Assembly (NCBI RefSeq): GCF_000027125.1 | Contig: NC_017626.1 | Source of the DNA: Escherichia coli 042 | Lineage (GTDB): Bacteria; Pseudomonadota; Gammaproteobacteria; Enterobacterales; Enterobacteriaceae | DNA length: 64,000 nt | Reading direction: 5' to 3' (one strand) | Shown: positions 59,398 through 64,000 of the stretch, piece by piece | How positions within the stretch are numbered: position 1 is the stretch's first letter | How the letters are laid out: each line of letters begins with the position of its first letter | The notes under the pieces: model-generated | The model's database searches: none | What the model saw: only the letters and a program-made list of their open reading frames with translations | Told to the model about the DNA's origin: nothing | Program-made: the position numbers and the translations under genes

Positions 59398-62300
59398 ATG
59401 AACAAAATTTTTAAAGTTATCTGGAATCCGGCAACAGGCAGTTACACCGTTGCCAGTGAAACGGCAAAAAGCCGTGGCAAGAAATCCGGGCGCAGTAAGC
59501 TGTTAATTTCTGCCCTGGTTGCTGGGGGAATGTTGTCGTCGTTTGGGGTACAGGCTCAGGCAGGAAGGGACAACGGTCAGGGCGTCAATTATGGCCAGGG
59601 AACAGGAACAGGCTGGGTTGCTATCGGTGAAGATGCAAAAGCAAATAGTTTTACAGACACCGGGGGTGGCTCCAGCACCGCAGTAGGTTATCACTCAACT
59701 GCTGACGGAAGGTGGTCAACAGCCCTCGGTGCTAAGACCCATTCGCTTGGCGAAGCATCAGTGGCGTTAGGGATTAACACTACCTCAGCAGGTGAGCGAA
59801 GCCTCGCTATAGGTGCATCGGCAACGTCAACGGGTGGATTTTCAATCGCACTTGGTCGTTATGCGAACTCAGTAGGTGAATTTTCTATTGCACAAGGGGA
59901 TCACGCAGAGACTGGTGCTGATGACGCCATCGCATTTGGACGTGAAAGCAAGGCCTTAGGAATTATGAGTATCGCCCTCGGAGCCACGGCTAATGCGTCG
60001 AAAGAATATGCAATGGCGCTGGGTGCAAGTAGCGCCGCATCTGCAGCTAACGCGATTGCAGTAGGCCGCAACAGTGCTGCAGCTGGCGTAGACAGCCTCG
60101 CATTCGGCAGACAATCCGCCGCCAGCGCCGCAAACGCGATTGCTATGGGTGCAGAGAGCAAAGCTGCTGAAAATGCGACGGCAGTTGGTACTAACGCGGA
60201 GGCAAATGGACTTAATAGTATCGCGTTGGGCTCCGGCAGTATTGCAGATGTCGACAACACGATTGCTCTGGGCAATCAAAGTCAGGCAGTAGCGGCTGGC
60301 GCAATTGCCATCGGTCAAGGGAATAAAGCTGACGGCGCAAATGCTATCGCGCTGGGTAATGGTAGTATTACAGGTGGTGTAAATGCTATTGCTCTTGGAC
60401 AAGGCAGTTATGCCGGTTTAGAAAATGGCACTGCAATTGGTGCTCAAGCCAGTGCTCAGGGGAAAAATTCAGTTGCTCTGGGTGCTGGTTCTGTAGCGAC
60501 TGACGCGGATACTGTTTCTGTGGGTAACACAACAGCTCAGCGACAAATTGTCAATATGGCAGCAGGTGATATCAGCACTACCAGTACTGATGCCATCAAT
60601 GGATCACAGCTTTATGCTATCAGTAAGTCAGTAGCGGACAATCTTGGTGGGGGGGCTACCGTCAATGCGCAAGGCGTCGTTACTTCCCCAAATTACAGGC
60701 TGAAAAGTGGTATTTTCGGCACTGTTGGCGACGCCTTAACGGGCCTGGACAATAATACGTTACAATGGGACTCCCTTAAAAAGGCATATAGTGCGGCACA
60801 TGGTACAGATACTACCAGTACCATCACCAACGTTAAAGACGGCGCTATTTCTGATACCAGTAAGGATGCGGTTAACGGTTCTCAGCTGAAAACCACCAAC
60901 GATAACGTAGCGACCAATACTGCCAATATCACCACCAACACTAACAGTATCAATACCCTGACGGATTCCGTTGGCGACCTTAAAGACGATGCCCTGCTGT
61001 GGAATGGCACCGCGTTCAGCGCCGCGCACGGCACCGAAGCCACCAGCAAAATCACCAACGTCAAAGACGGTGACCTGACGGCTGGCAGCACCGACGCGGT
61101 TAACGGCTCTCAGCTCAAAACCACTAACGATAATGTGGCAACCAACACCACCAACATCACCAACCTGACGGATTCCGTTGGCGACCTTAAAGACGATGCC
61201 CTGCTGTGGAATGGCACCGCGTTCAGCGCCGCGCACGGTACCGATGCCACCAGCAAAATCACCAACGTCAAAGACGGTGACCTGACGGCTGGTAGCACTG
61301 ACGCGGTAAACGGCTCTCAGCTGAAAACCACTAACGATGCCGTGGCAGCCAACACCACCAATATCGCCACGAATACCACCAACATCACCAACCTGACTGA
61401 CGCAGTTGACAGCCTCGGTGACGATTCCCTGCTGTGGAACGCTACAGCGGGGGCATTCAGCGCCGCACACGGTACTGATGCCACCAGCAAAATCACCAAC
61501 GTCACCGCTGGCGACCTGACGGCTGGCAGCACCGACGCGGTTAACGGCTCTCAGCTCAAAACCACTAACGATGCCGTGGCAGCCAACACCACCAATATCG
61601 CCACGAACACCACCAACATCACCAACCTGACTGACGCTGTTGACAGCCTCGGTGACGATTCCCTGCTGTGGAACGCTACTGCGGGGGCATTCAGCGCCGC
61701 GCACGGTACTGATGCCACCAGCAAAATCACTAACGTCAAAGACGGTGACCTGACGGCTGGCAGCACTGACGCGGTTAACGGCTCTCAGCTCAAAACCACT
61801 AACGATGCCGTGGCAGCCAACACCACCAATATCGCCACGAACACCACCAACATCACCAACCTGACTGACGCTGTTGACAGTCTCGGTGACGATTCCCTGC
61901 TGTGGAACGCTACGGCGGGTGCATTCAGTGCCAAACACGGCACCAACGGTACTGACAGCAAAATCACCAACTTACTGGCAGGCACTGTATCCTCTGATAG
62001 CACTGACGCTATTAATGGCTCACAACTTTATGGCTTAGCTGATTCATTTACGTCATACCTTGGCGGTGGTGCTGATATCAGCGATGCGGGTGTATTAACC
62101 GGGCCAACCTACACTATTGGTGGTACTGATTACAATAACGTCGGTGATGCTCTGGCTGCCATTAACACGTCATTTAGCACATCACTCGGTGACGCCCTAC
62201 TCTGGGATGCGACCGCCAAGGGCGGTGACGGTGCGTTTAGCGCCGGTCGCGGGACAGATAACACAGCCAGCATCATTACTAATGTTGCAGACGGTGCAAT

Positions 62301-64000
62301 TTCCTCTACCAGCAGCGACGCTATTAACGGCTCACAGCTCTATGACACCAGCAAGTACATTGCCGATACTCTGGGTGGTGACGCAGAAGTCAATGCTGAC
62401 GGCACAATCACCGCACCGACTTATGCCATCGCTGGCGGCAGTTACAGCAACGTCGGTGACGCGCTGGAAGCGATCGATACCACGCTGGATGACGCTCTGT
62501 TGTGGGATGCAACAGCCAATGATGGCAATGGTGCATTTAGCGCCGCTCACGGAAAAGATAAAACAGCCAGTGTAATCACTAACGTCGCTAACGGTGCAAT
62601 CTCTGCCACCAGCAGCGATGCCATTAACGGTTCACAACTGTATACCACCAACAAGTACATTGCCGATGCCCTGGGTGGTGACGCAGAAGTTAACGCTGAT
62701 GGTTCTATTACTGCGCCGACTTACACCATTGCAAATGCCGAGTACAACAACGTCGGTGACGCCCTGGATGCGCTCGACGATAACGCTCTGCTGTGGGATG
62801 CAACAGCCAATGACGGCGCAGGTGCCTACAACGCCAGCCATGACGGCAAGGCCAGCATCATCACAAATGTTGCTGATGGTAACATTGGCGAAGGCAGCAC
62901 TGACGCCATCAACGGTTCTCAGCTGTTTAACACCAATATGCTGATCCAGCAGAACAGCGAAATCATCAATCAGCTTGCCGGTAACACCAGCGAAACCTAC
63001 ATCGAAGATAACGGTGCGGGCATTAACTATGTACGTACCAACGACAACGGCTTAGCGTTCAACGATGCCAGCGCTTCAGGTATTGGCGCTACGGCTGTGG
63101 GTTATAACGCTGTCGCCTCAGGCGAAAGCAGCGTAGCCATTGGTCAAGGTAGCAGCAGCAACGTTGATACGGGTATCGCCCTGGGTAGCAGTTCCGTTTC
63201 CAGCCGTGTAATAGTTAAAGGTTCTCGTGACACCAGCGTGTCGGAAGAAGGTGTTGTGATTGGTTATGACACCACGGATGGCGAACTACTTGGTGCGTTG
63301 TCTATTGGTGATGACGGTAAATATCGTCAAATCATCAACGTAGCCGATGGTTCCGAAGCCCATGACGCCGTTACGGTTCGCCAGTTGCAAAATGCCATTG
63401 GTGCAGTCGCTACCACGCCGACCAAATACTTCCACGCCAACTCAACGGAAGAAGATTCACTGGCAGTAGGTGAAGACTCGCTAGCAATGGGCGCGAAAAC
63501 TATCGTTAATGGTAATGCGGGTATTGGTATCGGTTATGGTGCCTACGTGGACGCGAATGCACTTAATGGCATTGCTATCGGTAGCAACGCGCGTGCAAAC
63601 CATGCAAACAGCATTGCTATGGGTAATGGCTCACAGACGACTCGTGGTGCTCAAACTGGCTACGCCGCCTACAACATGGACGCACCGCAGAACTCTGTGG
63701 GTGAGTTCTCTGTCGGCAGTGAAGACGGTCAACGTCAGATCACCAACGTCGCGGCTGGTTCGGCTGATACCGATGCGGTTAACGTGGGTCAGTTGAAAGT
63801 AACGGACGCGCAGGTTTCCCAGAATACCCAGAGCATTACTAACCTGAACAATCAGGTCACTAATCTGGATACTCGCGTTACTAATATCGAAAACGGTATT
63901 GGCGACATTGTAACCACCGGTAGCACCAAGTACTTCAAGACCAACACCGATGGCGTAGATGCCAACGCGCAGGGTAAAGATAGTGTTGCGATTGGTTCTG
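59398..64000 (+). CDS. upaG: Trimeric autotransporter adhesin (UpaG/EhaG-like), N-terminal 1534 codons; runs off window end
   Basis: Frame stays open from ATG 59398 to base 64000 (translated the start through ~61140 and 61981-64000 by hand). Extended signal peptide [29 protein letters not shown]..., YadA-like head repeats (SIALG/NAIAVG/NSVALG), neck-like motifs ([48 protein letters not shown]), tandem stalk repeats. Missing from ORF track because no stop lies in the window. Confidence 0.85.
60760..61980 (+). repeat. In-frame tandem repeat array inside the adhesin gene (5 copies, periods 228/207/234/234 bp)
   Basis: Recurring unit ...[14 protein letters not shown](D/E)[31 protein letters not shown](A/N)VA(A/T)NTTNI...; motif gttaacggctctcagct at ~60871, 61099, 61306, 61540, 61774. 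Confidence 0.85.
61980..62940 (+). repeat. Second, more diverged in-frame repeat class in the adhesin gene (periods ~290-310 bp)
   Basis: Units built around AINGSQLY...LGG(D/G)A(E/D)V...TAPTY(T/A)I...Y(N/S)NVGDALDA...ALLWDATAN...; AINGSQL codons at ~62011, 62317, 62617, 62908. Confidence 0.75.

What the first reader, a model, noticed from the sequence alone, without database searches (positions are those of the whole stretch)
61980..62940. Second repeat class (about 100-aa units) in the same adhesin
Seen in sequence: three to four longer, more diverged units sharing AINGSQLY...[11 protein letters not shown](T/S)ITAPTY...[10 protein letters not shown]...ALLWDATAN blocks, following the shorter repeat array. 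This points to modular stalk construction from two repeat families.
Basis: seen in the sequence. Interest (0 to 1): 0.35.

Follow-up and report, generated by a model that had tools for sequence, protein, structure and literature searches.

The report
Known FGG–DALL–neck repeats in UpaG/EhaG adhesin
The roughly 100-residue repeats are real, but they are the well-known FGG, DALL and neck stalk modules of the E. coli UpaG/EhaG/SadA-type trimeric surface adhesin, so the finding is correct and ordinary.

Summary
Observation confirmed. The interval lies in a + strand ORF (ATG 59398, running off the window end). The ORF encodes the E. coli UpaG/EhaG/SadA-type trimeric autotransporter adhesin, sited between the mtl and lld operons behind a SadB lipoprotein gene.

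The interval holds three complete tandem units: 62005-62316, 62317-62616 and 62617-62901 (104, 100 and 95 aa; 57-74% identical; z = 27-40 against shuffles). The apparent fourth unit is only the closing neck motif. A real fourth, more diverged copy lies before the short array, at 60589-60864.

Each unit reads neck, short coiled coil, FGG β-meander, short coiled coil, DALL, neck. A profile of the unit matches crystallised SadA 255-358 (PDB 2YO2) end to end (E = 7e-29). An AlphaFold model of unit B (pLDDT 83.6) finds 2YO2 as its best fold match.

The short units share the DALL–neck half and lack only the FGG insert, so the two classes are variants of one module. The same long/short split is published for BadA, and 70-120-aa stalk repeats are noted for SadA. 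Among E. coli alleles the short array varies from 2 to 8 copies. The long trio is constant in nearly all alleles parsed and orthologous unit by unit in UpaG and EhaG. Already known; low interest.

The parts
59398..64000 (+). 5' part (1534 codons) of the trimeric autotransporter adhesin gene, a upaG/ehaG/sadA positional orthologue. It runs off the window end, so about 209 C-terminal codons, including the membrane anchor, are missing.
   Evidence: The frame is open from 59386 to the window end, with ATG at 59398. Pfam finds ESPR (1.5e-15), YadA_head (2.8e-49) and YadA_stalk (9.6e-113, 12 stretches). The gene is 99.3% identical to the 1743-aa YadA-like protein gene of E. coli EcPF15, which lies between mtlR/yibL/DUF3251 and lldP. 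The C-terminus of that homologue carries YadA_anchor.
62005..62316 (+). Long unit A (aa 870-973, 104 aa). Approximate motif-based limits: neck core 62005-62028, coiled coil to 62058, FGG 62059-62136, coiled coil 62137-62187 (17 aa), DALL 62188-62274. Its closing neck is 62275-62340.
   Evidence: It is orthologous to unit A of UpaG (82% identity) and of EhaG (66%).
62317..62616 (+). Long unit B (aa 974-1073, 100 aa). Approximate motif-based limits: coiled coil 62329-62370, FGG 62371-62448, coiled coil 62449-62487 (13 aa), DALL 62488-62574, neck 62575-62640.
   Evidence: It aligns to SadA 255-358 (2YO2) at E = 5e-19 as a single sequence and 7e-29 as a profile. The AlphaFold model has pLDDT 83.6, with helix 5-19, strands 25-43, helix 46-57, a non-helical stretch 58-104 and helix 105-118. 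The top Foldseek hit is 2YO2.
62617..62901 (+). Long unit C (aa 1074-1168, 95 aa). Approximate motif-based limits: FGG 62671-62748, coiled coil 62749-62778 (10 aa), DALL 62779-62859, neck 62860-62925.
   Evidence: It is 93% identical to EhaG unit C and 79% to UpaG unit C.
62902..62925 (+). It leads into a different coiled coil and then YadA-like head repeats.
   Evidence: The following sequence, [31 protein letters not shown], parallels SadA 823-947 (2YNZ).
60589..60864 (+). Solitary, more diverged long unit L0 (aa 398-489, 92 aa; FGG 60643-60720). It lies directly after the N-terminal head and before the short array.
   Evidence: It is 52-58% identical to units A-C and 63% identical to the equivalent EhaG unit.
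60865..62004 (+). Short repeat array: five units of 76, 69, 78, 78 and 79 aa, each reading neck, N/T-rich coiled coil, DALL, neck, with no FGG.
   Evidence: Copy number is 2-8 in other E. coli alleles. Exact DNA matches between units reach 113 bp.
58671..59354 (+). SadB-type inner-membrane lipoprotein gene, 43 nt upstream of the adhesin gene. It is the operon partner and export helper of SadA in Salmonella.
   Evidence: It matches PDB 4C47 at E = 1.2e-70. RefSeq names it 'SadB/YajI family lipoprotein' or 'DUF3251' at the same position. SadB function is described in PMC3953254.

Best explanation
The interval encodes three tandem neck/stalk modules of a UpaG/EhaG/SadA-type trimeric autotransporter adhesin.

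In the homotrimer, each unit of about 100 residues is expected to build one segment of the surface fibre. The 22-residue neck (β-to-α connector, ending DAINGSQL) starts a two-heptad left-handed coiled coil. An FGG domain follows; it is a three-stranded β-meander inserted into the coiled coil that shifts each chain by 120° around the fibre axis. A second short coiled coil of 10-17 residues comes next. The DALL motif (α-to-β connector) then leads into the next neck.

The short units upstream are the same module without the FGG insert.

Functionally the trio acts as rigid, chain-interlocking spacer segments. They lengthen the fibre and hold out the N-terminal YadA-like head. They may also add exposed β-hairpins that contribute to matrix binding.

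Shown here: the repeat, its boundaries, its homology to solved SadA and AtaA fragments, its predicted secondary structure, and its conservation among alleles. Inferred from the family: trimer geometry, the 120° rotation and the mechanical or adhesive role.
For: - **Repeat statistics:**
- **Gene identity and context:** ESPR, YadA_head and YadA_stalk domains; YadA_anchor in the 99.3%-identical full-length gene; position between mtl and lld; a SadB orthologue upstream. This is the arrangement published for sadBA and its E. coli orthologues (PMC3953254). RefSeq labels related alleles at the same position upaG and ehaG.
- **Unit against solved structures:** the unit profile matches 2YO2 (SadA 255-358) over profile positions 8-114 of 115 at E = 7e-29. 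It also matches 2YNY (SadA 255-302), 3ZMF (SadA 303-358), 2YNZ, and AtaA 3WPA and 3WPR.
- **Predicted fold:** the AlphaFold model has pLDDT 83.6. Foldseek ranks 2YO2 first (E = 2.4e-8). The local fit to 2YNY, the SadA 255-302 fragment that corresponds to the FGG half of the unit, is 1.1-1.4 Å over 51 columns.
- **Domain definitions and rules:** DALL is always followed by a neck (PMC2373917). FGG is a β-meander insert with a 120° rotation, DALL is an α-to-β connector, and neck has the consensus DAVNxxQL (PMC7247746; PMC9602544).
- **Spread of the module:** 1970 clusters at 50% identity match at E ≤ 1e-3, many with 10-80 stretches per protein.
- **Orthology:** units A, B and C are more similar to their counterparts in UpaG and EhaG (66-93%) than to each other (52-70%).
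Against: Nothing contradicts the structural assignment.

The limits are these. The model is a monomer, so its global rmsd to 2YO2 is poor (13.6 Å) and neither trimer packing nor the 120° rotation was tested. No functional data exist for these particular units. ECM binding by UpaG and EhaG has not been mapped to them in anything I could read. The primary paper on SadA, UpaG and EhaG fibre structures (Hartmann et al. 2012) and the UpaG paper (Valle et al. 2008) were not available in the library.
Confidence: 0.93

Rival explanations
1. The long units are primarily ligand-binding (adhesive) modules rather than passive spacers. On this view the exposed FGG loops and DALL–neck β-hairpins bind fibronectin, laminin or other matrix proteins additively.
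For: In Bartonella BadA, fibronectin binding maps to repeated DALL–neck connectors and possibly to FGG motifs, and it scales with the number of such domains (PMC9602544). UpaG and EhaG bind ECM proteins (PMC7247748). The trio is conserved in number and order in nearly all E. coli alleles parsed.
Against: None of the papers read maps binding to these units in UpaG, EhaG or SadA. The BadA binding peptides are not conserved in sequence here. Constant copy number is also explained by the lack of long exact DNA repeats between long units (≤22 bp).
Confidence: 0.25
2. The two repeat classes are independent families of separate origin that were joined in one stalk, as the reader's 'two repeat families' implies.
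For: The middle parts (N/T-rich coiled coil versus FGG) do not align. The longest exact DNA match between a long and a short unit is only 13 bp.
Against: Both classes share the neck core and an alignable DALL + neck half of about 45 residues with the same motifs. The same with-FGG and without-FGG dichotomy occurs within one module type in BadA. Profile matches in other adhesins often cover only the DALL–neck part.
Confidence: 0.1
3. There is no true 100-aa repeat. Only the short, strongly conserved neck motif recurs at roughly regular spacing.
For: The neck core DAINGSQL is the most conserved block and also occurs outside the repeats.
Against: Alignments run the full unit length at 57-74% identity with z = 27-40. 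The autocorrelation at offset 100 is 38% over the whole interval.
Confidence: 0.01
4. The long array is a contingency locus that varies in copy number to change fibre length or antigenicity.
For: One allele (L1PEag1) has two tandem long units instead of three, and SE15 has a rearranged first unit.
Against: All 120 closest protein clusters, plus P0126, UpaG and EhaG, keep three long units, while the short array varies from 2 to 8. DNA identity between long units is only about 79%, with exact matches of ≤22 bp.
Confidence: 0.03

Closest known systems
Salmonella enterica SadA stalk, fragment 255-358 (PDB 2YO2, SadAK12; sub-fragments 2YNY = 255-302 and 3ZMF = 303-358)
   Same: Same order of elements: coiled coil, FGG, coiled coil, DALL, neck. 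The alignment runs end to end (42% identity in the fold alignment, profile E = 7e-29). Same operon (sadB upstream) and same chromosomal position between mtl and lld. SadA is reported to have six consecutive stalk repeats of 70-120 aa at 55 to >90% identity (PMC3953254).
   Different: The helix between FGG and DALL is 24 residues in SadA 255-358, against 10, 13 or 17 here. Sequence identity is only about 40-50%. The number and order of units in full-length SadA were not checked here.
E. coli UpaG (1778 aa) and EhaG (1588 aa)
   Same: Positional orthologues with the same architecture. The three long units A, B and C occupy the same place and are orthologous one to one (66-93% identity). The head and anchor-proximal parts are the same.
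   Different: This allele (1743 aa in its closest full-length relative) differs in short-unit number and type. Its interval is only about 79-85% identical in DNA to the ehaG and upaG reference-type alleles.
Bartonella henselae BadA neck/stalk domains
   Same: The same dichotomy applies: domains longer than 87 aa read FGG, coiled coil, DALL, neck, and shorter ones lack the FGG. The DALL–neck tandem connector closes every domain (PMC9602544).
   Different: BadA has 30 such domains and three DALL variants. Fibronectin binding has been mapped there experimentally, and nothing comparable is available here.
Acinetobacter sp. Tol 5 AtaA C-terminal stalk (PDB 3WPA, 3WPR)
   Same: It contains FGG, DALL and neck elements homologous to the unit (E = 8.7e-49 for the profile, over several stretches). 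The glycine loop of its FGG is exposed on the fibre surface.
   Different: In AtaA the elements are interspersed with other domains (Trp-ring, GIN, YDD) rather than arranged as a regular tandem trio.

Membership tests
Trimeric autotransporter adhesin (type Vc secretion) | N-terminal (extended) signal peptide | tested here: met
   Pfam ESPR at aa 1-48, E = 1.5e-15, 57.8 bits against a cut-off of 25.
Trimeric autotransporter adhesin (type Vc secretion) | Passenger built of YadA-like head repeats, necks and coiled-coil stalk | tested here: met
   YadA_head at 165 bits (13 stretches) and YadA_stalk at 369 bits (12 stretches). Eleven neck motifs were found in the window part of the protein.
Trimeric autotransporter adhesin (type Vc secretion) | C-terminal YadA-type β-barrel anchor | tested here: inconclusive
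   The gene runs off the window end, so the anchor is not in the window. The 99.3%-identical full-length gene in E. coli EcPF15 has YadA_anchor at 72 bits against a cut-off of 22.7.
Trimeric autotransporter adhesin (type Vc secretion) | Obligate homotrimer | not testable with these tools
   Only monomer prediction is available. All homologous solved fragments are trimers fused to GCN4 adaptors, according to their PDB titles.
UpaG/EhaG/SadA orthologous group | Chromosomal position between the mtl and lld operons, with a sadB-type lipoprotein gene directly upstream | tested here: met
   In the window, ORFs corresponding to mtlA, mtlD, mtlR and yibL precede the SadB orthologue at 58671-59354 (PDB 4C47, E = 1e-70), and the adhesin gene follows 43 nt later. 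lldP follows in the matching complete genomes. The published definition is in PMC3953254.
UpaG/EhaG/SadA orthologous group | Sequence similarity to named UpaG and EhaG alleles along the passenger | tested here: met
   RefSeq-named upaG and ehaG genes match the interval at 78-85% DNA identity. The units are orthologous one to one.
FGG domain (daTAA dictionary) | (F/L)GG motif and a three-stranded β-meander inserted between two coiled-coil segments, homologous to SadA 255-302 | tested here: met
   LGG(G/D) followed by …P.Y is present in all four long units. The profile matches 2YNY at E = 1e-14. The model has β elements at residues 25-43 between helices 5-19 and 46-57, and superposes on 2YNY at 1.1-1.4 Å over 51 columns.
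FGG domain (daTAA dictionary) | 120° rotation of the chains around the trimer axis | not testable with these tools
   This needs a trimer structure. The property is taken from PMC7247746 and PMC9602544.
DALL–neck tandem connector | A DALL motif (α-to-β) immediately followed by a neck ending in DAVNxxQL that starts a coiled coil | tested here: met
   D(D/N/G)ALLW (NNTLQW in L0), then [11 protein letters not shown] strands, then the 22-residue neck ITNV…DAINGSQL, in every unit. It matches 3ZMF (SadA 303-358) and 2YNZ. [quoted passage not shown]
Named NCBIfam adhesins (Ata, EmaA, BimA, YadA 'exception' models) | Whole-protein score above the curated cut-off | tested here: not met
   auto_Ata scores 364 bits against 2500, EmaA 309 against 3000, and YadA 121 against 750. 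The protein shares domains with these adhesins but is not one of them.

The most novel reading that the evidence does not exclude
The invariant trio of FGG units may be a functional block under copy-number constraint rather than merely being shielded from recombination by sequence divergence. Three successive 120° chain shifts would braid the three chains through one full turn and lock the fibre against unravelling under shear. The conserved off-phase 13-residue helix of unit B could then tune twist or bending at that point.
Probability: 0.08. Interest if true: 0.3.

Novelty: already known. Interest (0 to 1): 0.08.

Why it matters
The finding matters little beyond correct annotation. The repeats show that the gene is a UpaG/EhaG-type adhesin and allow its stalk to be parsed into dictionary domains with solved homologues.

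Two practical points follow. The short array, not the long one, is where E. coli alleles change length. Short-read assemblies of this gene are therefore more likely to collapse at 60865-62004 than at 61980-62940. The FGG glycine loops are also known surface-exposed insertion sites in AtaA (PMC4910087), which could be useful for surface-display engineering of UpaG or EhaG.

Tried and rejected
- **Papers not held:** the primary papers by Hartmann et al. 2012 (PNAS; DOI and PMC3529040) and Valle et al. 2008 (PMC2446758) are not in the library. I relied on PDB entry titles and on reviews that cite them.
- **RNA families:** an Rfam scan of 58000-64000 at gathering threshold found nothing.
- **Alternative ORFs:** the alternative-frame + strand ORFs 62117-62575 and 62594-62944 have no Pfam match, and reverse-strand ORFs in the interval are ≤72 aa. 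I judged them spurious.
- **SadB homologue:** local Pfam and NCBIfam gave no hit. PDB sequence search settled its identity.
- **NCBIfam on the adhesin:** only sub-threshold matches to other named adhesins.
- **Pfam Hormone_6:** a sub-threshold hit (21.4 bits against 25) in the short repeats, taken as a compositional false positive.
- **Full-length SadA:** it was not among the retrieved proteins. I ran no further search on it, so the unit count in SadA rests on PMC3953254.
- **Contingency-locus idea:** the idea that the long array varies in copy number was rejected on the allele survey.
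Full report
**What is there**

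The interval 61980-62940 lies inside a long + strand reading frame. The frame opens at 59386, has its ATG at 59398 ([29 protein letters not shown]…) and runs off the window end after 1534 codons.

Pfam finds an extended type V signal peptide (ESPR, E = 1.5e-15), YadA head repeats (E = 2.8e-49) and twelve YadA_stalk stretches (E = 9.6e-113).

The DNA is 99.3% identical to a 1743-aa 'YadA-like family protein' gene of E. coli EcPF15. That gene lies between mtlA-mtlD-mtlR-yibT-yibL-DUF3251 and lldP-lldR-lldD, and its C-terminus carries the YadA_anchor domain.

The ORF just upstream in the window (58671-59354, 43 nt before the ATG) matches the SadB crystal structure 4C47 at E = 1.2e-70. Grin et al. 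describe this same arrangement for the sadBA operon and its Escherichia and Shigella orthologues: sadB then sadA, between the mtl and lld operons, and deleted in K-12 (PMC3953254).

RefSeq names related alleles at the same position upaG and ehaG. The gene is therefore an allele of the UpaG/EhaG/SadA trimeric autotransporter adhesin.

**Check of the observation**

Neck motifs DA(I/V)NGSQL occur at aa 398, 490, 566, 635, 713, 791, 870, 974, 1074 and 1169. Cutting from neck to neck gives this series:

| Units | aa | nt | Size |
|---|---|---|---|
| One long unit (L0) | 398-489 | 60589-60864 | 92 aa |
| Five short units | 490-869 | 60865-62004 | 69-79 aa |
| Long unit A | 870-973 | 62005-62316 | 104 aa |
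| Long unit B | 974-1073 | 62317-62616 | 100 aa |
| Long unit C | 1074-1168 | 62617-62901 | 95 aa |

- Units A-C are 57-74% identical, with alignment scores 27-40 standard deviations above shuffles. L0 is 52-58% identical to them.
- Tandem Repeats Finder reports a 300-nt period at 79% matches.

The periodicity is real. The interval holds three complete units. The apparent fourth unit is only the closing neck (62902-62925). The genuine fourth copy lies upstream of the short array.

**What a unit is**

A single-sequence search of the interval against PDB sequences hits Acinetobacter AtaA (3WPA, E = 6e-30) and SadA 255-358 (2YO2, E = 5e-19).

I then searched 1.84 billion representative proteins with unit B. 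This returned 1970 clusters at E ≤ 1e-3 and 267 at ≤ 1e-30, many of them giant proteins with 10-80 matched stretches. From 173 full-length unit matches I built a 49-sequence alignment (A1).

- Its profile matches 2YO2 in one stretch covering profile positions 8-114 of 115 (E = 7e-29). It also matches 2YNY, 3ZMF and 2YNZ (all SadA), 3WPR and 3WPO (AtaA), 4USX, 3LA9, and Hia and UspA1 necks.
- AlphaFold2 on unit B with this alignment gives mean pLDDT 83.6. The predicted elements are helix 5-19, β elements 25-43, helix 46-57, a mostly non-helical stretch 58-104 and helix 105-118.
- Foldseek against the PDB ranks 2YO2 first (E = 2.4e-8, 42% identity over 124 columns). The sub-fragments fit well locally: 2YNY (SadA 255-302) at 1.1-1.4 Å over 51 columns, and 3WPA at 1.5 Å over 57 columns.
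- The global rmsd to 2YO2 is large (13.6 Å), as expected for a monomer model of a fibre segment.

In the domain dictionary of trimeric autotransporters, FGG is a three-stranded β-meander inserted into a stalk coiled coil. DALL is an α-to-β connector, and the neck (consensus DAVNxxQL) is a β-to-α connector that starts a coiled coil. DALL is always followed by a neck (PMC2373917; PMC7247746). FGG turns the chains by 120° around the trimer axis (PMC7247746; PMC9602544).

Motif positions give approximate sub-domain limits for each unit. For unit B they are coiled coil 62329-62370, FGG 62371-62448, coiled coil 62449-62487, DALL 62488-62574 and neck 62575-62640.

**Relation to the short repeats**

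In a joint alignment the short and long units share the neck core and the whole DALL + neck half. They differ only in the middle. The short units have an N/T-rich coiled coil (…[17 protein letters not shown]…), and the long units have a coiled coil interrupted by the FGG insert.

**Variation among alleles**

- Among the 120 closest protein clusters (E. coli and Shigella, 1742-1987 aa), the short array has 5-8 units. Another allele (P0126, 1524 aa) has 2. The long trio stays three units with essentially unchanged lengths (104/100/95; one cluster has 101 for unit B, and two lost a neck-regex match to point changes).
- A RefSeq UpaG (1778 aa) and EhaG of O157:H7 EC4115 (1588 aa) also have three long units in the same place.
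- One allele (L1PEag1) has two tandem long units, and SE15 has a rearranged first unit.
- Units are orthologous one to one. A, B and C are 66-93% identical to their counterparts in UpaG and EhaG, against 52-70% between paralogous units. The triplication therefore predates allele divergence.
- The interval matches 3833 of 5426 complete E. coli genomes, and 3703 of them hold at least 80% of it.

At the DNA level, the longest exact match between long units is 22 bp (11-13 bp for pairs involving unit A). Short units share exact matches of up to 113 bp. This fits the observation that only the short array changes copy number. It is an inference from the known dependence of homologous recombination on exact identity, and was not tested here.

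**Function**

UpaG and EhaG mediate ECM binding, aggregation and biofilm formation. UpaG also mediates adherence to bladder epithelial cells, and EhaG to intestinal epithelial cells (review PMC7247748).

For the long units themselves, the best-supported reading is structural. They are rigid, chain-interlocking spacer segments that extend the fibre.

A contribution to binding cannot be excluded, because in BadA fibronectin binding maps to DALL–neck hairpins and possibly to FGG.

SadB has been proposed to keep the three highly repetitive chains in register during export, which is relevant to both arrays.

**Other checks**

- There are no Rfam families in 58000-64000.
- Alternative-frame and reverse-strand ORFs in the interval are short and have no Pfam match.
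- NCBIfam gives only sub-threshold matches to other named adhesins.

**Verdict**

The feature is a textbook, structurally characterised element of a known adhesin. Novelty: already known. Interest: low.

Noticed in passing
window 58671-59354 (+): This is a SadB-type inner-membrane lipoprotein gene lying 43 nt upstream of the adhesin gene (PDB 4C47, E = 1.2e-70). The local Pfam and NCBIfam libraries gave no hit, although RefSeq calls it DUF3251 or SadB/YajI family.
   Followed up: partly
window 60865-62004 (+): The short repeat array varies from 2 to 8 units among E. coli and Shigella alleles, and its units share exact DNA matches of up to 113 bp. It is the length-polymorphic part of the gene and the part most at risk of assembly collapse.
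   Followed up: partly
window 62449-62487 (unit B), compared with 62137-62187 (unit A), 62749-62778 (unit C) and 60721-60750 (L0): The helix between FGG and DALL is 10, 13, 17 or 10 residues in L0, B, A and C, and 24 residues in SadA 2YO2. Lengths of 10, 17 and 24 are in heptad phase. The 13 of unit B is three residues out of phase, and the same offset is seen in unit B of UpaG and EhaG. Its structural consequence is unknown.
   Followed up: no
L006 2418-7650 (E. coli 118UI, 100% identical to the window over 61980-62940): In this complete genome the adhesin gene is annotated as two overlapping CDS: an ESPR domain protein at 2418-3776 and a YadA family adhesin at 3667-7650. This points to a frameshift, a pseudogene or a sequencing error upstream of the interval.
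   Followed up: no
window aa 677-733 of the adhesin (about 61426-61596): A sub-threshold Pfam 'Hormone_6' hit (21.4 bits, cut-off 25) falls in the short repeats. The same family is also listed in the precomputed Pfam annotation of many database homologues. It is almost certainly a compositional false positive.
   Followed up: no
window 40000-64000: Only one E. coli genome (strain 135, chicken) matches this 24-kb stretch in a single colinear piece, at 99.2% identity. Several others need 3-4 pieces spanning 29-30 kb and carry an RHS element there, so the window lacks an RHS insertion that other strains have.
   Followed up: no
window 59398-64000 versus L001: There are eight amino-acid differences from the closest full-length homologue, EcPF15. 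All lie in the head regions (aa 159, 239, 243, 1255, 1351, 1374, 1399, 1410) and none in either repeat array.
   Followed up: no
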